A DNA stretch of 63,724 bases, filler included, from Kipferlia bialata (Eukaryota): NCBI GenBank assembly GCA_003568945.1. It is 6 parts of 6 records of this genome, joined end to end, with 100 filler letters (N's around TTAATTAATTAA, not from the genome) between each part and the next. Parts side by side here need not be neighbours in the genome. Positions count along the whole stretch, not along the records: positions 1 to 13,521 come from BDIP01000936.1; 5 more parts are not named here. One strand, 5' to 3'. Numbering within the stretch: position 1 is the stretch's first letter; every line of letters begins with the position of its first letter. Below the pieces are notes generated by a model that ran no database searches, was not told the origin of the DNA, and saw only the letters and a program-made list of their open reading frames with translations. The position numbers and the translations under genes are program-made. Shown one piece after another: positions 61-34,897 of the stretch.

Positions 61-885
61 GCGTTCTCAATGGGCATCAGGCCTGGGGGTGAGGTGTACT
101 GGTATATGGATCATCATATTCATCCACAACATACCCATATACATACTGCACTGTACCTGTGACTATTCACTATGAAATAGTATATATATGAATATTGATA
201 TACCTGTGTCCTGACTGGCTGCCTGGGACAGAAGGCCAAAAGCACCGCCTGGGGTAGGGGGTCATATATGTATACATATGCATATATATACATATATAGT
301 AGTAGAGAGTGCTGGAGGAGAGAGAGAGAGAGGGAGATATAGTACAATGCAGAGGAGACCAGAGGTACCACATGGAGTGAGAGATATAATACAAAGAGAC
401 AGATTATGAGATTGTAAATCCAACATAAACGGCGGATTAGAAGTCTGTAGCAGTATTGCTTGATTACATACCCTTGCCCTCGGCAGCTGCCCTGCTCCTC
501 TCTCTCTCTCTCTCCCTCATTCAAAACATGTACATACATACTATATATACATATACATATATATATACATATATATATAGACTTACCCTTGCCCTCTGCC
601 GCTGCCCTGCTCCTCTCTGTCACGTTCTGGAGGACACCAGCTGGGTGTTAGATACACAAGCACATATATATAGAGAGAGAAATGGATAGTGACACACTAG
701 ATGTTCAAATACAATAATTCAAAGTATAATTATAATATATTCAGTACTATATCCGTCTATACCTCTGGGTGGAAAGAGTCCTGATGGCACCTCTCCCGCA
801 GATGCTCCCTCTCTCTCTCCCTCCTCCCCTGTCTCTCCGGCATCGGATGCCAGGACATTGAAGGGGGTGCTCTCCTATAGGGTAA

Positions 886-939
<54 letters not shown>

Positions 940-2519
940 AAGATCTCATCAAATACACATACTCTACCTGGTTCTCCTGGGGTGTCTCATACACCCAGCA
1001 TATATATATTTATATATATGTGTGTGTGTGTATATATAGTATATTGTATATAATGGAATGTAATCATGTATATTCTCTACCTGGTTCTCCTGGGGTGTCT
1101 CATAGACAGTGGAGAGGGGGAACCTCTCTCCCTCCACAGTGGGGGTATCACTGGTGGCGGTCTTGGCTGAAAGTGAGACACTATATACTATATGTATATA
1201 TAGGGAGAGAGAGAGTATACAAGTGGCGGTCTTGGCTGGCTAATCAGAAACATGTATACACTATACATGCAAACGTGGTAGGTAAGATATAGCACTACAT
1301 AGGTATCTCCATATTTGTATACAAATATAAACACCAACTCCTGGGGTGTCACTGGGTACAGTCATGGCTCATAGTGATGGGGTTTGACACTATGAATATA
1401 TAGAGTACTGTATAGTGTTACATAAGGTCTACACATACCTGGGTACTTTACTGGGTATGGCGTCACACTAAGAGGGAAGGCAGTGGATAGATGGGACACT
1501 GACTGGGAGAGAGAGAGAGAGAGAGCGCTGTCCTCCGTGTCACTCTCGTCAGTATCCACATCACTCCACTCGCCCTCTCCCTCTCCCTCTCCCTCCCCCT
1601 CCCCCTCTCTCTGCCTCCATCTGGACACCCTGTCTGCCTCGACCTCCTCGTCACTGTCCTGGGGTTATATAATATATAATAATATACACTATAAATACAT
1701 ATACTAAATCGTCACTCTCCTATGGTTATATACACTATGCACTACATAGTAATCTACACTATATATATATATGTATACATATATACTATATATATATATA
1801 CTCTGTCTGCCTCGACCTCCTCGTCACTGTCCTGACGGGTGAGATAGTGCACATAATATACATACAGTAAAAGCCACCATGTAGAGTCGTCACTGTCCTG
1901 GGGGGTTACCCTTCTAACCGTCATTGCATCTCTATAAGGATATATACCGCAATACCTCTGTCTCCTCGTCTGATGTCTGCCCCTTGTCTCTCTCTCTCTC
2001 TATATATATATCTATATATATATATAAGTACTATCACTTCCCTGTCTTACCCTAGCTCCACCCATGTCTCTGACCCCCCGAGGAAGGCTCTCTCTCACAC
2101 ACTTACTCTCCTTATACATATATATACCCTACCTCTGTCTCCTCGTCTGATGTCTGCCCTTTCTCCCTCTCCCTGTCACTGTTCATCAGTCCATAGGAGT
2201 AGGACCGGTGGCCGGTCTCACTCTCAGACAGACAGAGCCTACTAATCAGAAGGAGTTAGTGTTACACTGATAGTACAGGTATATATAGAGTATGTACAGT
2301 ATGACTAGGACCGATGGCCTGTCTCACTCTCGGAGAGACATAGTCTAGGGAAAGTAGTGTATATATACAAATATCTATATATGTACAAATACATATATAG
2401 AGAGAGAGAGAAATAGAAGACTAGAGTATATATAGGGCCAGAGAGAGAGAGGAGTCAATCTCAGACAGACATAGTGTAGGGTATGTAGTGTGTTTATACA
2501 AATATGTAGTATAGATATG

Positions 2520-2552
<33 letters not shown>

Positions 2553-2858
2553 TATGCCCTGTGGCCTGGTCTCACTCTCACACAGATGGAAGAATAATAG
2601 TATGCACACTATAAAAATTTAGAAATAGATGAAAGCTGTTGTCCTTGAAAGAATTAGTACTCATAGGAACTCTTCCCCAGAATCATAGCCATATCTACCG
2701 AATCCAACACCACTCCTACCTCTCTCCCCCAGTCTCCCTGCCACTGCCACTCATGTCTGTCTCTCTCTCTCCCTCTACACCCTTTCTCCCTCTGTGTGTT
2801 GATGGGTGGAGGATGGGCTGGTACTGGGGCTGGGTGATCTAGACATTAGAAGGTATGC

Positions 2859-2899
<41 letters not shown>

Positions 2900-3787
2900 T
2901 GCAGGATAGGCTGGTACTTGGGCTGGGTGATCTAGCGGTTAGAAGGTATGTATTTACATATATATAATGATGTATAAGGTATCAATAAGCATATATTTAC
3001 ATATATAACACATATATGATGGGCTGGTATTGGGGCTGGGTGATCTAGATGTTAGGACGGAGTGTTATACATTCACACACGTAACTGTGTAAATAAGAGA
3101 TTCTCAGTAAAAGATACCCATAGAGACCTCCCAGGGTAGGCAGTGTGACGAAGAGGTACTGCCACATACCATCTACATACAAATGAAAATGTATAATAAC
3201 ACATACGTGTATATACATAATAATACATACGTGTATTCCAGTATAACATCTAACACTTAGTGTGTATGTCCATACCTGGTTAAGCAGTGTGGCGCATAGG
3301 TACTGCCACAGACCAGCGAGGGACCGGTTGAGGACATCGACGTCCTGTCGTGAGGGGATATTCACATATATAGGAATCTGTATAGAGAGAGATATATCCG
3401 CGAGGGACCGGTTGAGGACAGGACATCGACGTCCTAGGGTGAGTATGCACATGCGTCAATATGAGTATGTACAAGAGGGTATGCAGAACAGTACACACAC
3501 GCACACAGTGAAAGAGAGCTTAGATAATGAACGGCTGAGGACATCGACATCCAATGGTAAGGGGCCAGAGAGAGAGAGAGGGAGAGAGAGGGAAAGAGGA
3601 TATATGTATGTATCCCTATACAAACCTGGCTAGTGGGGTTGGATAGGGTATCCCCTGTCTGTGTCCTCTCTCTCTCTCTCTCTCTCTCTCTACATGTAGA
3701 TATATACATAGATACGTACCTGGCTAGTGGGGTTTGACAGCGTGTCCCCAGTCTGTGTCCTCTCAATGAACTCTCTCTCTCTCTATC

Positions 3788-3819
<32 letters not shown>

Positions 3820-6800
3820 GATATGTACCTGGCTAGTGGGGTTACTGAGTGTGTCCCCAGTCTGGGTTCTCTCGATGAACTCGAGGAAGTCTCTGGCGGC
3901 ACTAAGAAGGACCTATAATTAGAATACATGGAGAAAGAGAGAGATATCCATGAACTGAGAGAGGGGGAGAGAGAGATATCCATGAACTCTAGGAAGTCAC
4001 GGGCGGCACTAAGAAGGACCTACAGTAACGGTATACTAATGTACATATCAATATACAGGGGGTGCGAAAGAGAGAGAAACTGAGAGAGAACATCAATCTC
4101 TAGCGGCACTAAGGTGGAAGTGTTTGTATACAATTTGTCATTTTGATATAGATCTACTTCATATCACCACATACCTCGTCAGGATCCACCCCTCCCTCCT
4201 CCCTCTCCCCAGGCCACTGCTGGGGCAGGGGGATCTTCTTGGTGCGGCGCCTGGATGTTGAGTACGTGTGAGTGTTTCGCATATAATAGCAATTGTACAA
4301 CTGCAATGATTATACAGTTGTAGGCACATATGATGTCTGGTCATTTCCATACCTCTGCATAACTCTCCACCACTGGGGACCCTTCTCCCCACCCTTCCCC
4401 TTCCCCTTGCGCCCTCTCCCTCTCCTACCCTTCCCCCTCTGGAATCTCTCTCTCTCCCTGTCCCGGTCTCTCATGCCATACAGCCTCACACCCTGAAGGT
4501 AAAAAGGGTGTAGGAGGAGAGAGTATGTGTATTTGTGAAAAAGGGTGCAAGCGGAGAGAGTATGTGTGTTTGTGTAAAGAGGGGGCAGAGAGAGAGAGAG
4601 AGAGAGAGAGATACCTCAGGTGGACTGGTACTGGCCCTCCTCAGTACAAATATACATGTATATACTATAAGTATGGTCTTATCACATGCAAAATACATGT
4701 GATTTAGTATAGTATGTATGAATTATGTATAATATATGTACCTCAGGTGGGCTGCTGGTACTGGCCCTCCTGAATACATATATATACAAATATATACTAT
4801 GAATATACTATTAGTATTTTCAGACATAACACTATATACTGTACATATATGTAATGAATATAGCACATATATGTAATGAATATAATTCTATAATAATCAT
4901 ATACCTCAGGTGGACTACTGGTACTGGCCCTCCTCAGTGACCATCCAACATCCTCCTCTCCCTCTCCCTCTCCCTCTCTATCCCATAGAGATGAGGATGT
5001 GTGGATGCCACGACCGGCGGTAGTCTCTCTCTCTCTCTCCCTCTCTGCCCCCTTAGGGCCGGGCCACTTGAGACGCTGGGGATGAATACACTACTAAAAG
5101 CAATAGCATTTTTACTCATAGTTTATACTCTATACTCATATATGTCCACTTCAGACGCTGGGGATAAGTGTACACAATTATGTACAATACAAGACTTACA
5201 TTATATATGCTATACATACCTGGGGCGATATAGACAGAGGTGAGCGTGTGAGTGGCGACAGGGCATGGCTGAAGTGGCCCATGGAATATATATGTATATA
5301 CATATATAATCTATATAGAATATGCAAGGGAAGTATATCACATGGTATATGTATGTGTGTATTTGTATATACCTGGGGTGATATGGAGAGTGGGGATCTG
5401 GTCAGAGGTGACAGTGCATGGCTGAAGTGGCCCATGGAGTAGTCCCCATCCCCATCCATCTCTCCCTCTATGCGCATGGTGGGGAGGGGTGCCCTTCTCT
5501 AGGGGTGAGCACAGTAACAATATGTATATACTATATATATATATGTATATGTATATGTGTATATATGTATATATATTGCGCATGGTAGGGAGGGGGTGCC
5601 TTCTCTGGATATAAGAGAGTACAGAGATGCTATTGTATAAGTCCAGCTGACCAATTATTGCTCTCTATGTACTATATGTATATATATGTATATATATGTG
5701 GATGCGCATGGTGGGAAGGGGGTGCCTTCCCTAGATGTGAGTGTGTTGAAACACCATATACATACTATAAATATATATGTATGTATATATTGGTGTACAT
5801 ATATATATATATATTATACTTGTTAGTATACACATGGCAGGCAGTGCAGGTCTATTCTAGGGGTGAGCACAGTAACCACTATCCATAATAGTGCATATAT
5901 GTACTCTATAGATGCCTCACTCTCTCTCCACATAGTGTATATATATACGTTAAGAAATTCATATATATACTCTCGTCAATACACACCCATATGGGTATTG
6001 GCCTATATGTTATGTGTATACATATATCCTTCAATACAAGCGTACCTGCATCGGTGGGCTCTCTCTCTCTCTCTCATGCCCCTGCCCTTCATACATGCAT
6101 ATACACGAATAAGTACATACACTTCTAGACACTCACATGTAAATAGTTAGTACCTGCAGTACTATTATAAGCGTTACTACACATCCTACCTGCATCGGTG
6201 GGCTCTCCCCCATCCCCCTGCCCTTCATGCCCTTGACAACGCCTGGGGGGTTAGATTGTGTATGTGGCCAGAATTCATGGTATATGTGGTATAAAGTAGA
6301 GTATATAGAAACGCATATATACTATATCCTTGCTCTGCATGCCCTTGACAACGCCTGGAGGGTTAGAGAGATATAGTAGAGGAATATATAGTGTATAGTA
6401 TATAGTAGACCATATATATAGTATATAGTAGATCATATATATATGTAGTTTAGTAGGGATATATATACAATGAATCAAGAAATCCTGCCCTTCATGCCCT
6501 TGACAACGCAGGGTTAGGCAGACATAGAATTTATGTATGTGGACAGGGAGTAAAGCAAACGGCTGGAGGTAGAATTGCATTGAGCCCGTCAAGTATCCTG
6601 TATGACTACGCCTGAGTGCATATATATAGAGAGAGTTATAGAGTACACCCAGCCTAGAACGACCCTATGGACAGCATGGAGTCATACCATATGTATATAT
6701 ACAAGTACATAGTATGCTTATGATACTTATACATACTTCCATAAACATGTATCCGTATATATATATATGTACATACCCTTGAATGGCCCTATGGACAGCA

Positions 6801-8972
6801 TCGAGTCGATGGCCTTCTGCCAGGCAGAGGAGGCATCTGAGGATTAGACACAAAAGAGTATATATATATATAGAGTATATATAGAGTATATATATATATA
6901 TATAGGGAGAGGAAGTGAGAGTGAGAGAGACAGAGATACAGGGTTCTGCCAGGCAGAGGAGGCGTCTGGGGGTTAGACACATATACACACGCACATCTAT
7001 ACACAAATTGCGATTACATGTGAAAGGTATATGAGTCAATATTATTTAGGAGATACATGTATGTGTGCAGACAGAGAGATATCAGACGGGGTATCTAGGC
7101 ACGAGAAGTAACTCACACATATCCTCTATAGAGAGAGACCCCATGTATATACACAGGGGGAGGCTCAACCACTCACCCTCGACCTCTGGCTCTGCGGGTC
7201 TATCTCTCTCCCTGTCTCTCTCTCTCTCCCTGATCACGATGGTGTCACTGGGATGAGTATATATATATATATATACATAGCACATACTATACAGATAGTA
7301 TATACCACAGCCCTCTCTCTCCCCCTGATCACAATGGTGTCGCTGGAATAAGAATATATAATAGTAGTATATTCTCATGTGTCGCTGGGATGCGGCTGTT
7401 ACACTATAAACTATGTATGCTCTATATGCATATGCATAACACACACTCACACTCACCCCTTTGCCTTTAATAAAGTAATTAGTCAGTATAAGGACCTGTA
7501 TACTAAGATATGTATACAATACATCTATATATAGTATACTCACCCCTTTGCCTTCCTGGGGTTCTTGGCCAGGTGGGCCTGGAAGCGCTTGAACCTAGGG
7601 GTTAAGAGAACTATACATATATAATCAAATGTGTGTATAGCAGTAGAATAGAATAGATTAGATATATATGTGTGCCAATGTAAATAGGTGGGCCTGGAAG
7701 CGCTTGAACCTAGGGTGTTAGTGTGCACGTAAATTTGTATTCAAATATACATTCATATGTGTGTGTATGTGTGAATGCAAAGGCAATAGGCCTTGAATCT
7801 CTTAAACCTAAATGTCAATGAAGATGAAGTGTGTCTTCAGATACACGCATAGAGAGAGACACAAATCCGGGCCTATAAACATCACGACCCTACATAGATA
7901 CGTAATCTCATGCACACAATTACACATACCTCTGGAGCGATGCCAGCTTGAGGTTGGACACAGAGCCACCGACCTGGAGTGAGTGACACTTACATACGCA
8001 AATACACACATATATATACACACATATGTATGTGTGTATATTAATATATGTATGTGTAAGGCTTGAGGTTGGAGTCACCCACCTGGAGTGGAGTACATAT
8101 CTACAAGAGTATACATCTGGATCTTGTGGCATCAGTGCAAATATATCAAGCCAGTGCCAGAGTTCCCGGTATACAGGGATATATGTTCATAGATAGAGTT
8201 ATAGTTACCACTATGGAGTTGTATGTATCCTGCGTATGTATCCCAGTACCAGAGATCCAGGCAGTGTCTCTGTCTATACCTCTCGTCAACATATTTACAA
8301 TAATTGAAATACATAAAGTGTATTGATATAATGCGAGAGTGGCAGGTATTATTATGCGTATTAAAACAAAAACCTCGACAACGTGTACTACACACTATAT
8401 TCAAATACACACACCTGGTTCAGCATTCTGACGGATATGCTAGCCACCACCATCTGATACACCACAAAGGCATCTGGCCCCTTCTTAGACCCTTGGGACT
8501 CTGCAACTGTAGCAGTCATGGCATTCCTGGTATTAAATATATATACAATAACATATTTATATATATATACCTATATATGTGTGGAGTATATATTGGTATT
8601 CATTAGTTGCTTGACTGTCAGCCACAGTGGCAGTCATGGCATTCCTAATGATAAGACCATGTGTATGCATCCACAAACACACATGAGTGCATAAGAATAT
8701 GACAGAATGTGTATACTGTATACTACAGCTACATATATACACACCTCAGAGCGTTGAATGCTGCCACCTGCTCTGGGTTGGTCTGGTCGGACAGGTGCTC
8801 TGAAGGGTTAGAGATGTATATATATCCATATACTTATAGAGTTATGTAAATATACAATAACAAGTAGTAGGAGAGAAAGAGATATACTGCTCTGGGTCGG
8901 TCTGGTCGGACAGGTGCTCTGAAGGATAAGGGGATAGTCATGAAGATATAGTTAAATATATATAGTTACTGG

Positions 8973-9006
<34 letters not shown>

Positions 9007-11311
9007 CACTGCTCTGGGTTGGTCTGGTCGGACAGGTGCTCTGGGAGGTTAGGTAACAAACACAAGTATAGATGTCTGTATACACTCACATATATATATA
9101 TAATAGTATCAGAGAGAGAGAGACATATGTTTACTGATATGGGTTGGTCTGGTCAGACAGGTGCTCTGGGGGTTATGTTCAGTATGAGTATATGAACACA
9201 GATATTCCATTATATACTGAGGTGTAGAACATCTACTCATACACATACCTAGTCTCAGGCTGGGAGGCCGTCTCTCTATATATATAATGTATACATATGC
9301 TCTATTCACATATACACATTCATATCGCATACTATACTATACACATACCCAGTCTGAGGCTGGGTGGCCGTATATACACAGGTATATATACAGGTATATA
9401 TATATATGTATATATGGATGGTGCCCCTAGACTAATCCATTAAAGTATAAATATATACTTCTATGCACACCTATTCTCAGGCTGGGAGGCCGTCTCTTCC
9501 GGCCCTTCCTAGATCTCTTGGCCTTGGCACGGCTGGATATGAGTGTAATCACTTGATACATACGTATATACAATAATACATAGTAGCAAATGTATATAAT
9601 GCATGTGTGTACTTCCTAGATCTCTTGGCCTTGGCACGGCTGGATGTAAGGGTATATGTATACACATATATACTAGAGTATTCAGTAATTAATGAATGTA
9701 ACGTGTGAATATCTAACGGCTGGAATCAGAACAACAGAACAATAACGAACAAAAACGAACAAAAACGAAGAACAAGGAACAACACAGAACATGGTTGGAC
9801 AAGGAAAGGCTGCGGCAAGAGGATCCACAATATATACACAATAATACTGGATACAATACTGACGTATGAGGTTAGTAATTATGAATATGAACAGTATAAT
9901 GTATTTGCACACACACCTAGACCCGTAGTCAAAGCTATGCCACCAGCCCTCTATATATGTATGTATATATACTTATATATATTAATGTATACACACATCT
10001 GTATGTACCTATATATTCATACATATGTAAATGTATACAATTAGGTATACCTAGACCCATAGTCAAAGCTGAGCCTCCTCCCCAAGGGCTGTCTACCACC
10101 CCTCTCTCTCTCCCTCTCTCCACCTCTCTCTAGGGTGGAAGGAGAGTCAGGGTCACGCTTCTGGAACCTATTGCATTAGAAACATGGATAAGACAGATAC
10201 AATATATGAATATATGTCATACAATCAGTATCTCTTCGGAGAGTCAGGGTCACGCTTCTGGAACCTGATATAGGTAAAAGGGAGTAGTATCAATATATAT
10301 AAGTAACACAATACAGTCTATCCAATACCTTAGTGTCCACCCCCTCCTAACCCTGTCTCTCTCTCTCCACATATCTACCTCTCCATCTATATTCATACTA
10401 ATATAATGATATACACAAACACGATAGAGTTGCAGTATAGCACATGAGTATACCTGGGCGTCCACCCCCTCCTGACCCTGTCTCTCTCTCTCTCCAACTG
10501 TCTCCTCCTCTTCTTCTGATGGTTAGGACATACCCATATGCAAACAGTGCCAAATGTTAACAGAAAACATGTGATACACTCCGCCTATATCGTTACCTTC
10601 TGCTTGGGTGTCAGTTCATCATATAACCAATAATCCAACCGATGACTCTCTCTCTCTCTCTCCTTCTATATATATATACATATATATATCATGCATTCAG
10701 TATATATTTATATATATATATATACCTTCTGCTTGGGTGTCAGCTCATCGTCAGTGTGCACTAGCCTGGAGTTTAGAAGGGGTATACTATCACTATTGCA
10801 AAAAATGGATTTTATAGACCTCCCAATGGAAAGGTATTGTGGATTAGAAATACTGATATATTGATTGATTAGCTAGGGGATGTGAGTGCATCCATGGTAT
10901 ACAGTCAAGAGAGAGATTCCGATCAATTGACTGCAGTCAATCAATCAATAAATCAATCAATTGATTACCTGGGTGATGTGAGTGCATCCATCGGAAGGTC
11001 CATCTCGTTGGTGTCTCTCTCCCTCTCGCTCTCCCGCTGGCTCCTGGGGGGTGAGTACAGACATGTATACATACTATACATACATCTACATACTATATAT
11101 ATACTATATATACTATACTATAGATACTATACATATATACACTATATATATTCTCCCGCTGGCTCCTGGGGGGTGAACACCTCTACACACACACATCTCA
11201 CACCTCTCTACTAAGTATATACCTATATACTATACATGCATCAATCTCTCTCTCTCTCTCAATATATATATATCCTATACATACCTAATCCCTCTCTTGT
11301 GATGTCTGGCC

Positions 11312-11349
<38 letters not shown>

Positions 11350-13150
11350 GTGTGTGTACATGTGCATATTACCTTATGCCCCTCTTGTGATGTCTGGCCC
11401 TCTCCCTGGCTATCTGCATCTCTCTCTCTCTCTNNNNNNNNNNNNNNNNNNNNNNNNNNNNNNNNNNNNNNNNNNNNNNNNNNNNNNNNNNNNNNNNNNN
11501 NNNNNNNNNNNNNNNNNNNNNNNNNNNNNNNNNNNNNNNNNNNNNNNNNNNNNNNNNNNNNNNNNNNNNNNNNNNNNNNNNNNNNNNNNNNNNNNNNNNN
11601 NNNNNNNNNNNNNNNNNNNNNNNNNNNNNNNNNNNNNNNNNNNNNNNNNNNNNNNNNNNNNNNNNNNNNNNNNNNNNNNNNNNNNNNNNNNNNNNNNNNN
11701 NNNNNNNNNNNNNNNNNNNNNNNNNNNNNNNNNNNNNNNNNNNNNNNNNNNNNNNNNNNNNNNNNNNNNNNNNNNNNNNNNNNNNNNNNNNNNNNNNNNN
11801 NNNNNNNNNNNNNNNNNNNNNNNNNNNNNNNNNNNNNNNNNNNNNNNNNNNNNNNNNNNNNNNNNNNNNNNNNNNNNNNNNNNNNNNNNNNNNNNNNNNN
11901 NNNNNNNNNNNNNNNNNNNNNNNNNNNNNNNNNNNNNNNNNNNNNNNNNNNNNNNNNNNNNNNNNNNNNNNNNNNNNNNNNNNNNNNNNNNNNNNNNNNN
12001 NNNNNNNNNNNNNNNNNNNNNNNNNNNNNNNNNNNNNNNNNNNNNNNNNNNNNNNNNNNNNNNNNNNNNNNNNNNNNNNNNNNNNNNNNNNNNNNNNNNN
12101 NNNNNNNNNNNNNNNNNNNNNNNNNNNNNNNNNNNNNNNNNNNNNNNNNNNNNNNNNNNNNNNNNNNNNNNNNNNNNNNNNNNNNNNNNNNNNNNNNNNN
12201 NNNNNNNNNNNNNNNNNNNNNNNNNNNNNNNNNNNNNNNNNNNNNNNNNNNNNNNNNNNNNNNNNNNNNNNNNNNNNNNNNNNNNNNNNNNNNNNNNNNN
12301 NNNNNNNNNNNNNNNNNNNNNNNNNNNNNNNNNNNNNNNNNNNNNNNNNNNNNNNNNNNNNNNNNNNNNNNNNNNNNNNNNNNNNNCTAATACCCCTCTT
12401 GTGATGTCTGGCCCTCTCCCTGGCTATCTGCTTCTCTCTCTTCATCCTGCCCTTGTCCAGCTTCCTAGGGGGTTAGAATGGGTATATACACAATATGTAT
12501 AGTATATATATAATGATATTACTATGTATGATACTATATATGATATCATATATCTATCTATATATATATATATATAGTAGTAGTAATAGTAGTAGTAGTA
12601 TATAGTATATAGTGCATATAGTACATGTGGTATCTCTCTTCATTCTGCCCGTGTCCATTATCTTAGGGTTAGAATACACATACATAGATCGCATTGAGTA
12701 TATATTGTGTATAGTGTAGTGTATACTGGAGTATTCCAGTTTCCTCGGGTAAGAGTGTATATCCATACATTTAGAATGCTAGAATATAGTGATATCGAAT
12801 ACTATATGTCTCTCTTCATCCTACCCTTGTCCAGGTTCCTATAATAATCAATTGATGATAACCAATCAATCAATTGATTACTATACATACACACCTAATG
12901 TGCCTGGCTCTCTTTGCCATCAGCTTGGCCCGTCGCCTCCTCTCTCTCTCTCTCTCCTTCTCCCCCTCTCTCCCTCTCTCCCCTGTGTCGGAAGGGGTGG
13001 CTCTAGGCATATCGAGGGGGAGAGGCCTCCTGGGGGTAAGGAAGAGATGCTCACTCATACATATACATATGTGTTATATGGGTATATATGCCCTGTGTTT
13101 GAGGGGGTGGCTCTAAGCATATCCAGTGGAAGGGGGCGTCTGGAGTGAGA
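60..13150 (-). CDS. Large multi-exon hypothetical low-complexity protein (partial, about 30 short exons)
   Basis: GC-rich blocks bounded on the minus strand by CTNAC..YAG acceptors and GT donors splice into sensible peptides (RNAMTATVAESQGSKKGPDALVVYQMVVASISVRMLNQ; VLLSAARDFLEFIERTQTGDTLSNPTSQ; FKRFQAHLAKNPRKAKG). No family recognised; it could be more than one gene. Confidence 0.55.
11434..12386. other. Scaffold gap (N run)
   Basis: Plain N run; smaller gaps near 50866-50967 and 62533-62565. Confidence 0.98.
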
Positions 13151-13299
13151 TTGGTGGGAGAGAGAGACAGAGTAAGAGAGAGAGAGAGAGGCCTAGGCAT
13201 ATCTAAAGGAAGAGGAGACCTAGAGTGAGAGAGATAGGACAGACAGAGAGAGAGAAGATGATAGAGAGACATGACCTAGGCTCAAAGATGGCACCTTAG

Positions 13300-13521: not shown

Positions 13522-13621
13522 NNNNNNNNNNNNNNNNNNNNNNNNNNNNNNNNNNNNNNNNNNNNTTAATTAATTAANNNNNNNNNNNNNNNNNNNNNNN
13601 NNNNNNNNNNNNNNNNNNNNN
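13522..13621. other. Artificial 100-bp spacer (N44-TTAATTAATTAA-N44)
   Basis: Six-frame stop linker flanked by Ns; identical spacers at 27121-27220, 40717-40816, 54309-54408 and 60185-60284. Confidence 0.97.
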
Positions 13622-15533: not shown

Positions 15534-15703
15534 AGATGGGAGATGACCACATGATTGCACAATAGGTCCTATTAGAACTGATCTGAATCATTGAGGCGGT
15601 AGTTTAGTAATCTGGTTGTGTCTCACTACATACTCCACCATTCTTTAACACTTCTTATCAAACATCTATTATCACCGTCTCACTCTCTGTCTCATCCCTA
15701 TCC

Positions 15704-18315
15704 TCACACGATGGTGAGGTTGTATGTCACATCCACCACCAGACCGAAGTCCACCACCTCCGCATACACTCTAAGGGAGTGCTCCCCCATGGACAGGTTA
15801 GGGATGACCACGTAGTACCCGCCCCCGCCTGCCTGCCACAGACCCTCTACGTCGTAGTCGAAGATGGAGCCGTCAAGGACCTCCTGGATGTAGGGCTTGG
15901 ACTCGTAGTAGTAGGATGGCTCGATAGGGGGGAGAAGCGAGGTGGTGACTCCGTCTAGTGTGAACTGGAGGGGATTGGTCAGCTCGGTGAAGACGCTGTT
16001 GTAGAATAGGCGCAACCCCTCCAATGTGGAATCATCCGGCTCACTGAAGTACCTGTGTTACTAAGAATGGAGAGTTCCGAATTGCCTTATCACAAGTATG
16101 CTAGGTTGGCATATACATACCCGTTAAAGACTGGTACCACAATGTCGCGGCCATACTCGACGGCACAGTCTCTAACAACAGGACCGATTAGACCCTGAGT
16201 GCCTGCCAGATACCTGACTAGTTAACACTGAGTGTTGTACTTGCGATACATAAGTAACGTACTCTCTATAATATGGCGAGATTTATAGTAGCTATTCCTC
16301 ACCATGCCGTCTGAAGGTCCTGGTGTAGGCCGCATCTCTCTCCCGTTGTGTCACTCATGGGGTTGTTGTCCAGAGGCTCAATGCTCGCCCAGTTCCTGCA
16401 GTGAGGGTCATACAATATCCAACATGTCTACAAATGGCCAAAGACCCACATACCACCAGTCTCCATTGACATCGCCAGCCGGTCTAAACTGCATGCAAGT
16501 GGCATCTTCCACACCACAGGAGGAGTGATGGAGGTCGTCAATCCACTGAGGTGAGGCACTTATAGGAATGGTGTGAAGAGTACTAGTGTATATAACCGCT
16601 AGTGGTCAGCAGTACCTGTGGACATTCCAAGGCATTGCCTGCAAGGGTCACCTCCCTCAGGCCACCCATCTGGCCTGGTACCAACTGGCTCATGTCAGGC
16701 ACCTCGCCATTGATCTCATTGCACTCTAGACGCAGGCTCTTCAGGTGCTGCATTGACTGGGATTGGTATAGGCTAAATACGACTTCTATAATGATCAATC
16801 GTAGAGAAGCACATATAACATGCCAATGCACCCATATACCTGCAGACACTCAGGTAGGGCACCCGTGAACCTGTTGTTGTCGAGCAAGGCATACTTGAGG
16901 TAGGGCAAGGCACAGAGGGGGTCGATGTTGGTGCCACTCTCGATATCGTCACACCTTGACTGGCCGAAGTGGTTGCCTAATGGTAAGAGTGGTCGAAAGT
17001 GCAACGACAAAGTAACTCAGTCAAGTACCTGTGAGGTCCAAGTGCTGCATGTGCTCAGGGAGAGGGTGTATGGCACCCCTGAGGCCGTTGTTCCTTAGGT
17101 AGAGGGTCTTGAGCTGGGGCAGGCATTGGAGGGCAGGGTGGGCATACCCGATGAGGTTGTTGTCGCTGAGGTGGAGCTCCTTGACGGTATTGGGAGTGCA
17201 CACGCCAGGCACGTAAGAGTCGCACTCACATATGACACCGAAGTACTGGAGGTTAGACGGCATGTGATGTCCATAGCCTACACTTCTCATCAACAGATAA
17301 TGACTGAAGACTACCACTGAACAGCACCATACCTCGCACACGTCAGTGCCAGTCCAGCCTGTGTTGTTGGTCCAGTTGTCGCCTCCAGCAGCCTGTGGGT
17401 AGAAAATGTGTTGAAATCAGATATGATTATGATAAGAGTGTCCCCCAGTGGGAATACAGTGTATTCAATACACCGCATATATGATACATGACGTGCATGC
17501 CACGCGGCTGACCTGGTAGAACATGGCCAGTGCGGCCTCAGGGGTGGCAGGACACTCAAAGTGCACAGGGATGGCATCTATCTCCAGGGGGATGGCCACG
17601 CCGATCTCCTCGTCCTGGGTCAGTGTATTGTGTATGTGTCAAGGCAAGACAGGTAGGCAGATGATGTGAAGGGAGGGGATGTGGGAACAGTCATGAACAC
17701 ATCAGCTAGTAGATACTGACAATAGACCCCCACCCACCTGATGTGCGTACACAGCCGACGTAGGCAGGAATGGTGTGATGGCGTCACTGGCAACATCCAC
17801 CTGGAAGCCCAGGGAGAGAGAGAAGGGGGCGTCGCTGTCGATGTCACCCATGTAGAACCGCAGGGCCACGGCGCCGTCGGGGTAGTTGTAGACATAGTCA
17901 GGCTCGACGGAGACAGACTCGAGGTCGATTACGGTGGTGCAGGGGGCGACAATGTCCAGACGGACATCGGTGTTGATAAGCTGGTGTGAGGCAAAGAGGA
18001 GCGAGATTAGAGAGGACTTGTGGTCCTACGGGTGAACAGTCGGAGAGAATAGCGTATCAGTGATAAGGGCCGCCAAAGCCTGAGTCAAGTAGTGACTGAA
18101 CTTGTGTGTGACGATAGAATTACATGTAGGAGGTGTGTTCTTACCTCAGTCTCCGCCTCTGTGACGTTGACGGTGAGCAAGGCCGTCTTGGGGTTGGTAT
18201 CGCCGCTGGCCAAGTATATGCCGCCCTCTGGGGTAGTGATAGAGGCCGAGGCGTCCAAGGCCACGGAGAAGGAGAGCAGGAACAGCAGGATCAGGCAGCA
18301 CACAAACACCCTCAT
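15704..18315 (-). CDS. Secreted/surface leucine-rich-repeat protein (plant-type LRR with N-cap)
   Basis: Signal peptide MRVFVCCLILLFLLSFSVA; N-cap ALAMFYQAAGGDNWTNNTGW..C..FGVIC; repeats VKELHLSDNNLIG, LKTLYLRNNGLRG, LKYALLDNNRFTG, LKSLRLECNEING. Confidence 0.8.
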
Positions 18316-18589
18316 CGAGTAGTGTCTGGTAGAAACGTGATTGTTCAAGGATGCTTCCGAAGCTGTGCGAAGCTGCGACTTATGGTATCAGCGTCTGAAG
18401 GTTTCAACCCAGAATCTGAAGCTACCAATTGTCTGAAACACAAATCATCTCAACAGTTACATCACAATGCATACGGCGCCATGGCTGAAATGACAAGTCA
18501 AAATTTACTCTAGAACGAGGGAGACAAATAGAAATCGGAAACACGTGAAACATGGACATAAAGTATTGTCGAACTGGCAGTTCAACTGC

Positions 18590-24205: not shown

Positions 24206-26200
24206 TCAGACGGTCGAAGGCCTGGCGGTAAGTGCATTAATAGTAAGCGGCATGATCGACAGACAACAATAATCACTTGTTGAGTAAAAACAATCCTCGC
24301 ATCCCACCTTAACATGTACCGCACTGTACGATGCCGTCACATGAGCGGGGAATGACACATGGAGGTCTGTCCACCCGTCACTCAGGGTGAAGCTGGGTAA
24401 GAGGGGTATGCAGTATGTGCTACATAAATACAACAGAGAATATTCACTGTATTTCTCAGATATGCTCACCTGAAGGCATGGTAGCGAGCAAACACGTAGA
24501 GCACCCCGTGGACTACTACACATGCACGGTACATGGGGTCCTCATGCTGTGTTAGAAGGGATACTCTAGGAGTCTCTACTGCGATACCGTGAGAAATCAA
24601 TGACAGTGAATGTGTTGCGGATTTATAATAGAATACACGTGGAAGCGCAGTATCGTGAACAATACGCACCATGATACCCCTTGGGCACTGGTGATCTAGG
24701 GTGTCAAAGGTCCCAGTAGCAGGATCATAGAGACGCATGATCTCTCTACCACCCTGGGGTTAGAAGGGACCACTATATACTACACCTCGTGTATTTGCAG
24801 CAGCTCTCACCTGGTCCTCCTCGTCCCGTGCCCCATGCCTCTCGGCACAGTGGCCAGTGGAGCCGAAGACCAGGAACTTGCCGTCTAGACACACCCCCAT
24901 GCCAGCTGGGGTAAGTATGATGTGTATCCTATATAATTTATATAGCATATTGTGATCGATATCAACATGGCAATACTACTATATAATACTACGGAACTTA
25001 CCGTCTAGACATACACCCATGCTAGATGGGGTGAGGGTATATAATAGAGTGATAAATAGAGTAGTATGATCCAATATACTGTGCACATCTTATAGTGAAT
25101 CGATATCTTATAGAGACAGACGCACATGCCAGCTGAGGTGCGGGTATTCTATATGAAACAAAACCAAAATGGAGACAGATACTTTAGCTAGCTAGGGGGT
25201 GGGACTTGGATGTATATCCGGAAATTCACCCCGAAAGTGTAGACAGTGAATCACACACATACACACACACATATATATTAATATACACATATATAAGAAC
25301 TGGACATCGCACCTGTGTCCTTAGGTTCCATGCCGTCTCTGTCGGGATCTGCTGTCCTGTCTGTAGGTCAGTGACGATATAACATAACAATTAATGAATG
25401 TATAATATGATGGTGTAACAACAATAATACCCAATAGACCATATCAGACACACAATACGGGACAACGTACCTTCTGGCCTGACAGTCTTCCACTCAAGAG
25501 TGTCCAGAGGTAGTATGTTGAGCTCTTCTGAAGAGTTAGACACTGGCTTAAGATCCTAACTACACAGTATATACAGAATACTCTAGATTAGTGAGCTAAG
25601 GCATACAGCCTGTATTACAAGCTGTCTGTAAATAGGTTCACACCGCATCAAAGCATAAGCACCTGTACCAGCCTTGCTGCCAAATGGGACGGTAACTGGG
25701 TCCCCAGATCTGCAGTGAGACACACTGCTGTGACATACACCTTTACACACTATACACTTACGATGCTTAATACCAACCTGAGTCTCTTCCCGTAGAGGTA
25801 CACACAGCCACCGACCCTAGCAATTGCAAGGGGCTGGACTGTCACACAGACACCACGAGGGGCCTCGGGTTACACACTATAAGTATAAATATACACGCAG
25901 TAAAATATGTGTAAACGAGTGAACTACAATATCCAACCTGGAGACGGGATGGGATCTGTCTGGACTCCAGTAGGGATGTGGGCTGCTGCTGGTCTTGGTG
26001 GGAGAACACTGAGGTGAGAGCCGTATATAGTCAGCAAATAGAAAGAATATATGATGGCAATGTTCCTTATGAATCGTGATGTCACATACACCACATACCG
26101 TGTGTCACAAGCTGATTGTCCTGGACGCTGAAGGAGAGTGACTCCCCAGGGCCTCCCTCAACCCATCTCTGGTACGAGGGTGCCTTGGTGGCTAGTGTCA
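24206..26200 (-). CDS. Kelch-repeat-like protein (multi-exon)
   Basis: Exon peptides AIARVGGCVYLYG, LNILPLDTLEWKTV, GVCLDGKFLVFGS, RLYDPATGTFDTL, CVVVHGVLYVFA, FTLSDGWTDL. Confidence 0.6.
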
Positions 26201-27059: not shown

Positions 27060-27308
27060 TTCAAGATAGAGTATAGATGATAAGTGGGGGGGGGGGGGGG
27101 GGGGGGGAGGAGGGGATAGANNNNNNNNNNNNNNNNNNNNNNNNNNNNNNNNNNNNNNNNNNNNTTAATTAATTAANNNNNNNNNNNNNNNNNNNNNNNN
27201 NNNNNNNNNNNNNNNNNNNNGAAAAAAATTTTTTTTTGTCCCCCCCCCCCCCCCCCCCCCCCCCCCTCTCCCCCTTGTTTGTATATACATATGTATCCTC
27301 ACCCCCAG

Positions 27309-30300
27309 CTAGGCCCTGTGCGTGTGGCCGAGAAGGACCAGGAGGAACCAGCAAGTGGTGTGGGGTACATCGTAGGTACACACACTAATCTCTACGTATT
27401 ATGTGTATTATTTGATATTCAACGTAGTCGTCTAATGACTGCTATTGGTGTCTCACCCCCAGGTTATGACGATGGTACCCTCCTGGCCTTTGCCGTCACT
27501 GACCAGGGGCGTGTGTACACACACAACCTGACACCCCCGCTGTCACCAAGGCCACCCATCCCATCCACTCTGAGGTACCATATATATTCATATACACTAG
27601 TATTCACTATACATCTTAAACGATTGTCATATATATATTCATGCGTTTATGTTTGCTTTGCCCTGACCCTCAGGCTCCTAGAGTATGCCCAGCCCCTAGG
27701 CGGTGCCCCTGGTCGTAACCCATCCCTGGCCATCAGACACCGGATACTCTTCATAGGCAGTAGTACAAGCACGCCAGTTGTGTACAAACTGACAGGTATT
27801 GCCATGTAGGGGTATTGTGTATGTGTAGTATGTGAATTATCCTACTCACCCCCAGGTGATGATGTCCTGAGTCCTCTGCTGTCTGAGCTAGGCCTAGGGT
27901 TCTTGGCAGCTCCATTCAGGCAGTGTCTCGGACCAGTCCAGGTTTTTATTATACTACATTATGTACTCATATTCATATGTTTCATATACAAACACTAGTT
28001 TATTCCCTGTGTCGGTTTACTTTCCTGGCCTCACAGTGTAGGATGCCATTGTGTTCAGACCCCATGGTGAGGTGACAGACTTGATGGTCACAGTCAGTGG
28101 ACACGCTAGGTATAACTTCACATATATACTAACTATATATTTGTGAAATATATGGTTGTTGACTGTCTCTCCCTTACCCATAGGGATGGACTCCTTGCCA
28201 TCGGCATGCCCTGCTACCCCCTCAAATCATATACATTCATAGACTTATGTCTATCATTTGTGTAATAGTACTGAGTGACTTATCCTAGGGATGGTCTCCT
28301 AGCCATCGGCATGCCCTGCTACCCCCTGGAGCGACTCTCTGCCCCAGGCCCAGTCATCCCCACTCCCTCTCCATACATGAGATGCTTCGGACATGCCAAC
28401 GGCCAGTACCTGCTCCTCAGTGACAGGTGAGAGGCATTCACACTGTATATACTGTGTATACAGATATGTATTTGTATTAGACACTTATTGTGTATTCTTA
28501 CCATTGTGTGTCTAATATTCAGGGGTGCAGGCTACACCTCTGTGTTCCGGGTGGAGCAGATGGACACGGTCAGGTTCAGACCCATTGCACCCCACCACCT
28601 GACAGGACTCGACATGGAGCACGCAACACTCAAGGTATATTCATATATTGGTATATGTATATATATATGTGTGTGTGTGCGCGCGTATATATATATGTGT
28701 ATATACACGACTCGACTTGGAGCACACAACACTCAAGGTGAGCAATGTAAATATCAAATGTCTTCAAAACTTGGATAGAATATATCTTCTGTTGAGTTTG
28801 ATTGATATCACAATTCTGACCCCAGGTCGAGCCCGTCATTCTCAACACCGGCCACATGTGCTCATGCGATATGTCGGGACCAGGTATACATTCATGTTTT
28901 TGTCTTTTAATGCGGCCTTCTGACTTCTCTCCTCATGATATTTCTTGATCGATTGCACTGACAACCCAGGTCTTGCCAAGCACGCTGCCATGGAGAGAGA
29001 GAGGCTTAAGAAGGTACATATGAATACATTGTCATGTATTGTTGTGTGTTCTTACATATGTCTCAATCCAGGCCCGCCAGATGGCTGTGGACAGGGAGGG
29101 CAAGGAGCCAGACGCTGAGACCCTTGCTAAGCAGGATATGACCAAGCTACTAGTGCAGGTATGCTATATTATAGATATACATTTGAATTGTAATTATTGG
29201 GTCTGGTTGGTTTGCTGACTTCCAGGTGACCCACACCGAGATCAGGGTATTATGTAACGACCCCTTCAAGACTGGGCCCAACAAGGAGTTACCCGCTGGG
29301 TCCCTTGTCACCAAGTGGGTGGCACCACACACAAGCAGGTGGGACATGTACCAAATTAATACACTTACTGTTAGCAATCTTTCTCTAATAGAGTGTTCTT
29401 CTCACTCCAGAGGTCATCTGCTCCCATTGATGGGCGCCAGTGTTAGCAACACATTCATCGCAGTCTCAAGGGGAAGGAGGTTAGAAAATGAGTATTCATA
29501 AGTACCTACTATATTTCCTGCATCCTCAGTTGTTATAATTGGTTGTGTTACTGGGATATCTTACTGGCCCCAGGACCTTTCTGCTTCATGCCCATCGTAC
29601 TCAGTTTATGTATTCTCGTTTTGAACTCACGGTTAGGATCTTTCTGCTTGAGATGCGGGTAACCAAGAAGGACGATGATGGCAGCATGGGGGTGGACCTG
29701 TGCGTCAGAGCCAACTTCAAGACTACCAAGGTCACATACCAGTATTGCATTTGTAACATATATGTATATGTAGTGTGTATTCTCTCACCCCCAGGAGGTG
29801 TCGTGTCTGACTGTTGTGGCCGATGCCTCCAAGCCCATGAGGTCCGGGCAGCCAGTCCCAGAGGCATGTAGGTGAGGATGACTCTAAATGTACATTCTTC
29901 CCTGCATTGACTAATATTTTGTATATATTATTCCCATTATAGTAGCAAAGTATTGTGTGTTATGTCTTACTCCTCAGGTTCCCCGGTCTCCTCTTTGTCT
30001 CCACCTACTCTGGCCACCTCCACGTCCTGTCCCTGCCCCCACACTCCATGGCACTCGTGGATGAACTCGCATGCCCATACTGTCTAACGTAAGTTGTAAG
30101 CTATATTACGGTATATACTAGGTACTATCACTGCCTCCCCATTCCATGGCACTCGTGGATGAGCTGGCCTGTCCTTATTGCCTGACGTGAGTACCATTAT
30201 ATGTTCATAATTACTCTCTTCGCACACTGACACTGATGTTGTTGGAGGGTGACACACACTTAGAGGCAAACGTTATTCATTTGACTGCTGCTATATCATA

Positions 30301-33300: not shown

Positions 33301-34866
33301 TATGTTTGTCCCTGTCTTACAAGTCAGGGGTGCCCAGCTGTCTGCCTTTGAGTTGAACCCTGACACAGCCGGGGATGTGCCAGTACCAGCTGGACTGCCC
33401 GCCATCGGTGAGTGGATATATATATATGTGTGTGAACACATACCTTGTTACTGGGTCTATTCTGAACCCCATTGAGAACTCTATGAACTGCGATTGTGTT
33501 CAATGACAACACAGTATCTGACCCCCAGGCAGCGTATGGTCCTTCTCCTCTCTTCAGACCCTCCTAGCCATGGCAGTGGCCAAGCAACCATCCGTCATGA
33601 GCTCATACGTCAGTCCTCCCAAGGTATACCTTTTGGATCCTATATATGTATTCTATTCTATTAGGTATTCTTCTCATATCTTCCTAATTCAGCTCAACAA
33701 CACCCGCCACCCCTTTGCGGGTACATCCATGACATCTGCCCTGATAGGGTCGTTAGACGACCAGGAGTGCGAGACACTGGATGAGGGTAGCAAGGTATAC
33801 CACACTATACACAGTGTATCTTTATATGTACATCAGTGAGTCTCATTCCTATGATGTATGTGTATGTAGTCTTCCCTCACCCTAGGTGTACCTTACTAAC
33901 CGTGGTGCTGTTGAGTCCCCGACTGGCAGGGTCAACATGCAGCTGTGTGCAGGGCAGCCAACATACATCAAGAACATCAAGGCAAGACACACATTAGATA
34001 CATACTAACAGTATTGACTTGTATGAATATGGTATATATGTATACCCCTCTAACCCCAGGCCCTGGCCGATGTCCTCAAGTCCAAGGAGTCAACCAGAGA
34101 GGACCTATTCTTCCCAGTCAACGACGGTACGCACTCTCCGTACTAGGCCTAGTATCCCTACTTCAGCTATTTCCTTGATTCGGAATAGTTGTTCAATTCC
34201 AGTAATTCAGGCTTGGTCTCTTACTCCAGGCACCTGTGTGCTAGGCGTTGAGAGTGGCGGCGGTGTCTCCCTGTACCAGAGGGTGATGGACGGGAGTGGC
34301 GAGTGGTCCCTCAAGCTGATAGCAGCCGATGTGCACCACGTGGCCCCTGACCCCAAGAACGCACTCTACCTGCCGATGAAGTATGCAGTCGTGGTGGATC
34401 ACAGCGGGGCATTCAGACTCTTAGGTATACATTATATTGATACTAATATACATATATGTCTTATTGTTACTATAATTCTTTTGTGTATATCATGTTAGAG
34501 TATTAAGACTTAGAGTATTTAATTGTTCACATTCAGGTGTGGGTGAGAGCACCATTGATGTCGCCCTGAGGGGCAGGGACGAGACCGAGGAGAGCATCCC
34601 CCTGCACCCCTTTGAACTGGTGGCAGAGTGCAGGCTCAAGCACAACCTCAACGTCATTAGGTGGGGTGTTAGGCATTGTTTTGTTAATTCTATATAATTA
34701 TAGGTACACGTGTAGAGGGGATAGACACGTGTCTGGTTGCATTATGAGGATATATGGATATTCTTACCCCCAGGCAGATCAGACCCCAGCTTGTGTTCAG
34801 AGATGCCCCACTCACAAAGACACAGCCGGCAGGTATATATATATATATAGAGAGAGAGAGATATAA

Positions 34867-34897
<31 letters not shown>

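What the first reader, a model, noticed from the sequence alone, without database searches (positions are those of the whole stretch)
5220..5441. 23-codon intronic copy with 13 of 13 differences silent
Exon end 5373-5441 and copy 5220-5288 (minus strand) both encode YSMGHFSHALSPLTRSPLSISPQ followed by GT. Twelve codons differ (13 nt, including AGA/CGC) with no amino-acid change. A 23-nt identical block sits next to a run of near-saturated third positions. The 84-nt spacer is in frame and stop-free but has no branch-point acceptor.
Basis: seen in the sequence. Interest (0 to 1): 0.82.

Follow-up and report, generated by a model that had tools for sequence, protein, structure and literature searches.

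The report
Silently recoded exon ends inside introns
In the free-living microbe Kipferlia bialata many introns hold short copies of the neighbouring exon's end, with its splice site, that differ from the exon mostly at silent positions; they are likely leftover pieces of other, highly diverged versions of the same gene placed there by faulty recombination, which would be a record of sex and extreme diversity in a group where sex has not been seen.

Summary
Confirmed, and not a one-off. The 69-nt copy differs from the exon end at 13 nt, all silent (12 are secure; one may be junction filler). The window is Kipferlia bialata. Around 138 exons modelled here lie 103 such copies: 59 of exon starts with their acceptor, upstream, and 44 of exon ends with their donor, downstream. 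In 98 copies away from gaps, silent sites differ five times as often as replacement sites (0.27 vs 0.055); shifted frames lose the signal. Copies keep consensus splice sites, yet the intron letters beside them are unrelated to the exon's own. Each copy adds about 105 nt to its intron. A spliced RNA contig across four neighbouring exons uses the inner exons letter for letter; DNA contigs hold exons and copies in one piece. Alternative splicing cannot explain the constraint: 94 of 98 extensions shift frame or stop. Best reading (0.55): fragments of diverged functional alleles left by aberrant and unequal recombination. No second isolate was found, so the allele pool is inferred. I found no description in print.

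The parts
5373..5498 (-). Focal exon (126 nt, phase 0) of a low-complexity protein gene without a recognised family; acceptor 10.1 bits, donor 8.0 bits
   Evidence: no Pfam family; no relative found
5289..5372 (-). 84-nt spacer: proximal donor plus TA-rich intron filler; one weak AG only
5220..5288 (-). Focal tail copy: last 23 codons of the exon, 13 (secure 12) silent differences, followed by a donor stronger than 129 of 131 real donors; the 20 nt after it are unrelated to the exon's own intron start (edit distance 9 of 20; random pairs 10.4)
5146..5157 (-). Short head copy of the next exon (12 nt, one silent difference) behind an 11.4-bit acceptor; below the detection threshold
4905..5075 (-). 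Next exon (171 nt); has two tail copies of its own at 4742-4771 (2 silent differences) and 4612-4645 (one codon deleted)
5577..5604 (-). Head copy 1 of the focal exon (28 nt; 1 silent, 3 non-silent differences)
5702..5730 (-). Head copy 2 of the focal exon (29 nt; 1 silent, 4 non-silent differences)
3829..3912 (-). Neighbouring exon tested with RNA contigs: read with 0 other letters, inner acceptor and inner donor
   Evidence: record 8
3720..3773 (-). Tail copy 1 of exon 3829-3912: 8 of 8 differences silent, Ser AGT/TCA included; present in DNA contigs as its own piece
   Evidence: record 4
3626..3670 (-). Tail copy 2 of exon 3829-3912: 9 of 9 silent against the exon, 5 of 5 differing codons silent against copy 1
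3979..4019 (-). Head copy of exon 3829-3912 (3 silent, 1 non-silent at the inner end); in one DNA contig with the exon, not covered by the spliced RNA contig
30122..30186 (+). Tail copy of exon 29978-30088 in another gene and contig: 14 of 14 differences silent, eight changed codons in a row
53932..54239 (-). Array of four head copies of WD40 exon 53766-53901 (51, 51, 41, 51 nt; spacing 81, 81, 81, 95): 18 silent, 1 non-silent difference, each behind a different consensus acceptor
46248..46514 (-). Array of three tail copies of exon 46575-46670 (45, 44, 42 nt; spacing 105, 116, 106): 7 silent, 1 non-silent
8887..9165 (-). Array of three 32-nt head copies of exon 8745-8799 with one shared inner end and three different acceptors
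204..13219 (-). Host gene of the finding (27 modelled exons, 50 copies; both ends lie beyond the modelled part, one gap inside)

Best explanation
The copy is one of about a hundred intronic duplicates of exon ends in this Kipferlia bialata window, and it is likely an untranslated fragment of a different, highly diverged working allele of the same gene, likely left behind when recombination between two alleles began in the conserved exon and ended by an imprecise joint in the unalignable intron. Steps: (1, shown) copies are anchored on the adjacent splice site, in direct orientation, starts upstream and ends downstream. (2, shown) differences are silent-biased and the splice sites are consensus but different, so both sequences were under selection as coding exon ends while they diverged. 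(3, shown for four neighbouring exons, inferred for the focal one) the mRNA uses the inner exon. (4, inferred) the divergence therefore built up in separate lineages. (5, inferred) a break in an exon is repaired off the other allele: one end copies the rest of that exon, its splice site and most of an intron, then rejoins the resident end through TA/GA/TC filler; only outcomes that leave one whole exon and no decoy acceptor-donor pair survive. (6, inferred) once a copy exists, unequal crossing-over with other alleles adds units with the same inner end and new outer ends, and short conversion patches make the identical blocks. (7, from literature) fornicates lack NHEJ and Rad51A and have two Dmc1 paralogs, and Dmc1 tolerates mismatched base triplets, which would favour such events.
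For: Anchoring: 80 of 82 local alignments fall on the adjacent exon end; 93 hits in adjacent introns against 0-3 per replicate for non-adjacent pairs, 2 on the wrong side, 3 inverted. Silent bias in 98 copies: pS 0.27, pN 0.055, 195 of 323 differences silent against 26% expected, p 2e-38; in shifted frames 8-9%; third positions lead in all six phase classes. Copy against copy: 47 silent, 10 non-silent codons; 6 codons show three synonymous states, so at least three sources. Splice sites: head acceptors median 8.8 bits (49 with AG), real 10.6, background -4.9; yet in 18 of 18 copies of 22 nt or more with 0-1 difference the 20-nt intron flank is 6-12 edits from the exon's own, random pairs 9.8-10.4, which a fresh same-allele duplication would not give. 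Splice-site halves hold 58 silent to 2 non-silent codons, inner halves 45 to 16, p 5e-4, as expected if outer parts are refreshed from working alleles (alignment-edge noise also contributes). Neighbouring copies share inner ends within 2 nt in 11 of 30 pairs against 13% at random. Tails precede heads in 11 of 12 introns with both. RNA record 8 has 0 other letters over four exons. Some copies decay: 3 stops, 16 of 103 without AG/GT, 3 frameshifting indels of 4 seen. Literature: PMC8516963 section 8, PMC6719624 section 17, PMC4209137 abstract: crossovers in a hypervariable fungus fall in exons.
Against: No second allele or isolate was seen: DNA contigs show no other letters and no second version of the copy-free exons at 80% likeness, and searches found no relative of the focal exon or a second Kipferlia AdhE. 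The needed divergence is extreme: silent sites are either identical or fully saturated in blocks of 3-5 codons (two-state model f0 0.0, f1 1.13, supported range about 0.9-1.3), an exponential-coalescent model fits worse by 6-8 log units, and 3 of 52 Ser codons switch between AGY and TCN, with almost no amino-acid change; in the hyperdiverse fungus S. commune high diversity brings 'extreme amino acid diversity' (PMC4576712 abstract). Spacers are nearly a whole intron long (median 75, none under 30; copy-free introns median 91), which a random break-off point does not predict. Sex has not been observed in Metamonada (PMC8516963 passage). Exon models are mine, from a gene finder trained on this window and corrected by hand.
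Confidence: 0.55

Rival explanations
1. Copies are born as same-allele tandem duplicates (unit about 105 nt) and stay nearly frozen, while the working exon and its splice site are rewritten much faster, by short conversion patches from other alleles or by exon-focused mutation filtered by selection. Copies are then dated snapshots of the exon.
For: Explains silent bias, three-state codons and blocks of identity; tight unit length, median 106, quartiles 95-122; silent difference per base rises with copy length, rho 0.55.
Against: Outer copies are not more diverged than inner ones (9 more, 8 less, 4 ties). Copies with 0-1 difference already have unrelated intron flanks. No known process raises the silent rate of an exon tenfold over GC-rich DNA 100 nt away (own knowledge). 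Its conversion form still needs the allele pool.
Confidence: 0.18
2. Copies are still used: in some stage or fraction of cells the exon is joined to a copy at an identical block, by DNA rearrangement or by an RNA-level jump, so both stay under protein-level selection in place.
For: Accounts directly for saturated silent sites with almost no amino-acid change (58 to 2 in outer halves), for intact strong splice sites and for identical blocks that could act as pointers.
Against: No joint between exon and copy in DNA or RNA contigs and no RNA contig with copy letters on exon 3829-3912 (RNA depth there equals record 8 alone), though 3560-3828 was skipped as repeat and contigs drop rare forms. The product would be the same protein, so the benefit is unclear. 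By my reasoning, simple collapse or two-way conversion cannot bring the replacement/silent ratio below about 0.5, against 0.10-0.20 seen. Many copies are decayed.
Confidence: 0.15
3. One reading: the distal donor, or the copy as a cassette, is spliced in and gives a duplicated peptide.
For: Focal extension is 153 nt, in frame, stop-free; the copy's donor is stronger than the exon's (9.9 vs 8.0 bits).
Against: 94 of 98 such extensions shift frame or stop, the other three fully silent long tails among them; 4 of 98 open is the chance level. The cassette would frameshift. Inner sites are used at four neighbouring exons. A second copy behind an intron-derived linker need not keep every residue.
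Confidence: 0.04
4. Assembly artefact: two haplotypes or strains strung in tandem.
For: Five of 103 copies sit beside N gaps, two of them identical to the exon. The DNA run laid may be the source of the window, so it is not an independent sample.
Against: Separately assembled contigs carry exon 3276-3344 with its flanking copies (record 1) and exon 3829-3912 with its head copies (record 3) in one piece with 0 other letters; the tail copy has its own contig with flanks at depth 395 beside 424-443; no second haplotype covers copy-free exons. Gap-side copies were dropped before all statistics.
Confidence: 0.04
5. Ordinary neutral internal duplications, the silent pattern being chance or selection on the exon alone.
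For: Short internal duplications are common in eukaryotes (PMC3443670 passages); 128 of 323 differences are non-silent.
Against: Expected silent share 26% (41-44% with silent drift of the exon) against 60-76% seen; focal p 5.6e-5 under the kinder model; copy-to-copy differences are silent too.
Confidence: 0.01

Closest known systems
Internal (intragenic) tandem duplication and intron gain by tandem genomic duplication (PMC3443670, passages seen; Gao and Lynch 2009 not held, recalled only)
   Same: Short direct duplications inside a gene that span or contain splice signals, with part of the duplicate ending up intronic.
   Different: No new intron is made and the protein is unchanged; the duplicate carries a real splice site with an unrelated intron flank and shows protein-level selection that a same-allele duplicate cannot acquire.
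Tandem exon duplication with mutually exclusive splicing (recalled)
   Same: Homologous coding segments in neighbouring introns under purifying selection.
   Different: Copies are partial, with one splice site only; they encode the same residues rather than variants; not in the RNA contig.
Recombination in a hypervariable species, Schizophyllum commune (PMC4209137 abstract; PMC4576712 abstract and section 5; PMC9187340 abstract)
   Same: Crossovers confined to conserved exons; corrected silent divergence 0.48 between interfertile populations, close to the 0.34-0.39 here; blocks of two divergent haplotypes.
   Different: There the variation is seen between individuals and includes much amino-acid change; here it is inferred from fragments within one genome, in far shorter blocks, with little amino-acid change.
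One-sided invasion / templated insertion at double-strand breaks, and unequal crossing-over (own knowledge; search gave listings only)
   Same: A break end copies a template and rejoins by microhomology or filler, leaving a tandem duplicate; arrays grow with shared breakpoints.
   Different: Not known to me as a pervasive, splice-site-anchored feature that builds intron length in steps of about 105 nt.
Silent-cassette gene conversion (vls, pilS, VSG) and paralogous segments in ciliate germline DNA (recalled)
   Same: Partial unexpressed copies next to an expressed sequence, with identical blocks that could serve recombination.
   Different: Cassettes change the protein and belong to one gene family; these are synonymous and occur in unrelated genes (WD40, serpin-containing, importin-alpha-like, unknown).

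Membership tests
Internal tandem duplication within a gene | Direct repeat within one gene, close to its source | tested here: met
   93 adjacent direct hits against 3 inverted and 0-3 non-adjacent; spacing median 106 nt
Internal tandem duplication within a gene | Both copies identical at birth over the whole unit, intron flank included | tested here: not met
   18 of 18 copies with 0-1 exon difference have flanks 6-12 edits of 20 away; only 8 of 82 flanks are within 4 edits
Internal tandem duplication within a gene | Intronic duplicate decays without regard to reading frame | tested here: not met
   pN/pS 0.10-0.20 in frame, 3-5 in shifted frames
Intron gain by tandem genomic duplication | Duplicated AG|GT inside an exon creates a new intron between the two copies | tested here: not met
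   Copies lie inside an existing intron and repeat its donor or acceptor; RNA joins skip them whole
Mutually exclusive or cassette duplicated exons | Duplicate has both an acceptor and a donor and keeps frame | tested here: not met
   Focal spacer AG 0.1 bits, cassette 91 nt; 80 of 82 alignments cover one exon end, none the whole exon
Mutually exclusive or cassette duplicated exons | Duplicate appears in mRNA | tested here: inconclusive
By-products of recombination between diverged alleles | Differences look like those between working alleles (silent-biased, splice consensus kept) | tested here: met
By-products of recombination between diverged alleles | Arrays share the inner breakpoint and differ outward | tested here: met
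   11 of 30 neighbouring pairs within 2 nt against 13%; flanks differ
By-products of recombination between diverged alleles | Such diverged alleles exist in the species, some matching the copies | tested here: inconclusive
   No second allele or isolate found
By-products of recombination between diverged alleles | Outcrossing or a heterozygous stage occurs | not testable with these tools
   Meiotic, plasmogamy and karyogamy genes are kept in metamonads, sex not observed (PMC8516963 passage)
Silent-cassette gene conversion (antigenic variation type) | Cassettes encode protein variants of one surface gene family | tested here: not met
   Differences mainly silent; copies in all five gene-bearing contigs modelled
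Introner / mobile intron elements | One element family repeated at unrelated sites | tested here: not met
   Each copy matches only its adjacent exon; Kipferlia is not named in the main text of PMC9860276

The most novel reading that the evidence does not exclude
Kipferlia keeps protein-identical, synonymously recoded spare ends for its exons and still swaps them in, by a DNA- or RNA-level joining at short identical blocks that is not spliceosomal, or rewrites exon ends by an unknown process that respects the reading frame. Saturated silent runs with almost no amino-acid change in low-complexity proteins, Ser AGY/TCN switches and intact but different splice sites would then reflect selection in place, across tens of thousands of introns.
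Probability: 0.17. Interest if true: 0.93.

Novelty: new variant of a known kind. Interest (0 to 1): 0.76.

Why it matters
On the best reading, one genome preserves pieces of at least three ancestral alleles per locus. That would be sequence evidence of outcrossing in a free-living metamonad, a group where sex has not been observed (PMC8516963), and of silent-site divergence (raw 0.27-0.30, corrected 0.34-0.39) above the 0.20 within-population figure that PMC4576712 called the highest reported. It would show what Dmc1-only, NHEJ-less repair does to gene structure, and give a mode of intron growth in steps of about 105 nt (91, 196, 309, 437 nt for 0-3 copies). It also poses a splicing question that can be tested now: how a reduced spliceosome passes over consensus decoy sites, some stronger than the real ones. 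With 93 copies in 131 introns here and 124,912 introns reported for the species (PMC5874029), the class could run to tens of thousands, though density varies tenfold among genes and the window is no random sample. If no diverged alleles exist, the pattern needs a mechanism that is not known.

Tried and rejected
No whole genome is held for this window, so all counts come from the window. General repeat finder was swamped by microsatellites. Run search: no listed holder on record as RNA; one DNA holder and one guessed RNA run of the same sample; its 0.12 word share is not used as evidence. The listed RNA joint 3276 to 3044 (27 letters) is read as the start of exon 2720-2838, which lay outside the stretch, matching its head copy. 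No relative or annotated protein for the focal exon: 0 of 8 candidates, 4 weak hits with none of the peptide's 5-mers; two single exons not found by exact look-up. Metagenome scan with the AdhE exon: best 80 of 577 loci were 42-57% identical, none a second Kipferlia. Nested model (a whole new exon inserted into the old one, so head plus tail rebuild it): heads and tails do not co-occur beyond chance (p 0.45, 0.16) and mostly leave gaps. Age order by rank: none. Direction of third-position change: balanced, 74 vs 64. Same-allele duplication with collapse or two-way conversion: rejected by reasoning (ratio not below about 0.5). Recursive splicing, decoy or docking roles: would not constrain amino acids; not tested further. 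Earlier findings of this scan: none returned. Not in print as far as searched: searches gave no listing that describes such copies; the genome paper's main text has no word starting 'duplicat'. Subscription journals and supplements were not seen; Gao and Lynch 2009 was not held.

Full report
Observation. The two stretches translate to the same 23 residues and differ at 13 nt in 12 codons, all silent, each followed by GT, with an 84-nt open spacer. The first difference lies in TA filler at the junction; without it 12 of 12 are silent, p 2.8e-7 for a drifting copy and 5.6e-5 if the exon also drifts silently. The copy's donor scores above 129 of 131 real donors, the spacer's one AG above only 5 of 138 acceptors.

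Setting. The window is six contigs joined by N and a linker. An AdhE exon is 100% identical over 408 aa to a protein named Kipferlia bialata; the next hit, Dysnectes, is 73%. Introns have a branch-point-like motif a few bases before YAG. I modelled 138 exons in five contigs with a gene finder trained on the window and hand correction; each chain is open and in phase. One gene on contig 2 (11 exons) and the AdhE gene were not in the count. The host gene encodes a low-complexity protein with no Pfam family in six exons tested and no relative found.

The finding is one of a class. An ungapped, frame-blind search anchored at exon ends found 103 copies: 59 heads (exon start, upstream; 49 with AG) and 44 tails (exon end, downstream; 38 with GT). 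Controls: 93 hits in the 131 adjacent internal introns, 2 on the wrong side, 3 inverted, 0-3 per replicate for non-adjacent pairs; 80 of 82 gapped local alignments sit on the adjacent exon end. Five copies beside N gaps were dropped before the statistics. In the other 98: 195 silent and 128 non-silent differences, pS 0.27, pN 0.055; among 82 with an intact site and 6 nt trimmed, 151 to 59, pS 0.30, pN 0.037; shifted frames give 6-9% silent. Seven of the 26 copies with five or more differences are fully silent. Density varies: 50 copies for 27 exons in the host gene, 41 for 38, 7 for 53, 4 for 13, 1 for 7. Intron length climbs with copy number: medians 91, 196, 309, 437, 479 for 0-4 copies.

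Anatomy that bears on mechanism. Head acceptors keep the consensus (8.8 bits, real 10.6, background -4.9); tail donors score 6.8 against 6.0 real and 4.0 background, a weak separation. The intron flanks are nevertheless close to unrelated: mean edit 8.6 and 9.3 of 20 against 9.8 and 10.4 for random real pairs, and 6-12 in all 18 copies of 22 nt or more with 0-1 exon difference. Silent changes cluster (52 adjacent pairs against 35.8 shuffled, 0 of 5000) and fit a mosaic of identical and saturated blocks. Non-silent changes gather at the inner end (58:2 outer, 45:16 inner). Copies differ silently from each other (47:10), six codons have three synonymous states, and rank gives no age order. Inner ends are shared within arrays more than by chance. 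Filler after heads is rich in TCTC and TATA, before tails in GAGA and TATA. Tails precede heads in 11 of 12 introns. Some copies carry stops, frameshifts or lost sites.

Reads. One DNA holder, possibly the window's source, and one guessed RNA run of the same sample were laid on 3000-4760. RNA record 8 covers 4352-4494, 4173-4249, 3829-3910 and 3276-3344 with 0 other letters and contiguous record positions; two joints are listed with GT-AG ends, and the joint from 3829 to 3344 is read from the positions. RNA depth over exon 3829-3912 equals that record alone, so no contig with the copies' letters lay there. DNA records 1 and 3 carry exons and copies in one piece; record 4 is the tail copy with 8 other letters at similar depth. 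No second allele appeared.

Reasoning. Only translation constrains amino acids. Alternative splicing cannot supply it, since 94 of 98 extensions break frame or stop. A same-allele duplicate that drifts, collapses or converts both ways cannot give pN/pS near 0.1 (my reasoning). So the two sequences most likely diverged while each was a working exon end in its own lineage and were then brought into tandem. Recombination that starts in the exon, the only alignable part, and fails in the intron gives one-sided duplicates; selection keeps those with one intact exon; unequal crossing-over then builds arrays with shared inner ends and new outer ends. Steps beyond the anatomy are inferred. Fornicates lack Ku and Rad51A and carry two Dmc1 paralogs (PMC8516963, section 8 read); Dmc1-type residues ease repair from templates with adjacent mismatched triplets (PMC6719624, abstract and section 17); in S. 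commune crossovers between 14%-diverged parents fall in exons (PMC4209137, abstract) and corrected silent divergence between populations is 0.48 (PMC4576712, section 5), against 0.34-0.39 here.

What does not fit. No diverged allele was found. Saturated blocks with almost no amino-acid change, Ser family switches in 3 of 52 codons (two of the three share one exon codon) and near-intron-length spacers are more extreme than a simple hyperdiverse population predicts, and an exponential-coalescent model fits worse than the two-state one. These leave room for a faster-rewritten exon (0.18) or for continued use of the copies (0.15).

Comparison and novelty. It works like an internal duplication or templated insertion, but fails the tests for same-allele duplication, intron gain, mutually exclusive exons, antigenic cassettes and introners. 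Papers seen: PMC5874029 (passages, section 7), PMC6679479 (passages), PMC8516963 (passages, section 8), PMC3443670 (passages), PMC9860276 (term search, no hit), PMC6719624, PMC4209137, PMC4576712 as above, PMC9187340 (abstract); all others as search listings only. Seven searches showed no description of these copies; supplements and subscription journals were not seen. Labels such as importin-alpha-like and SNARE-like are my reading of the translations, not tool results.

Verdict. Real, far beyond chance, and much wider than reported. New variant of a known kind; best mechanism 0.55; interest 0.76; a categorically new reading stands at about 0.17.

Noticed in passing
window 24866-25140 (+): A gene outside the counted set shows the same pattern: an exon end followed by two tail copies, the first with three silent and two non-silent codon changes.
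   Followed up: partly
window 27309-38430 (+): Long many-exon gene(s): a beta-propeller-like part without a tested family and a C-terminal part with a Serpin hit below the curated cut-off (E 7.9e-5); a C/T run at 35500-35600 leaves open whether they are one gene. One intron has a GC donor at 33982.
   Followed up: partly
window 55560-58800 (+): Bifunctional aldehyde-alcohol dehydrogenase (AdhE), 100% to the K. bialata protein; long exons and short introns without TA filler, no exon-end copies seen by eye, hinting that highly expressed genes avoid them.
   Followed up: partly
window 61209-63607 (-): Armadillo-repeat, importin-alpha-like gene (my reading); a 43-nt identical tail beside an N gap may be an assembly duplicate; two identical 18-nt heads at the last exon.
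   Followed up: partly
window 15700-18325 (-): Secreted-looking protein with leucine-rich-repeat-like segments (my reading); introns are less TA-rich; not searched for copies.
   Followed up: no
window 43085-54240 (-): 38-exon gene with WD40 repeats (for the first exon) and 41 copies, among them the four-unit head array.
   Followed up: yes
window 59095-60134 (-): Small coiled-coil protein with a C-terminal hydrophobic stretch, SNARE-like (my reading); one tail copy ends in GC instead of GT.
   Followed up: no
window 13566-13577, 27165-27176, 40761-40772, 54353-54364, 60229-60240: Identical 12-nt linkers between 44-N runs: artificial contig joins, not biology.
   Followed up: yes
window 8060-8080 (-): A head copy of exon 7930-7973 with what looks like an in-frame 6-nt deletion, missed by the ungapped search; the count of 103 is a lower bound.
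   Followed up: partly
window 36100-36300 (+): Intron holds a diverged repeat of about 100 nt unrelated to the flanking exons (by eye).
   Followed up: no
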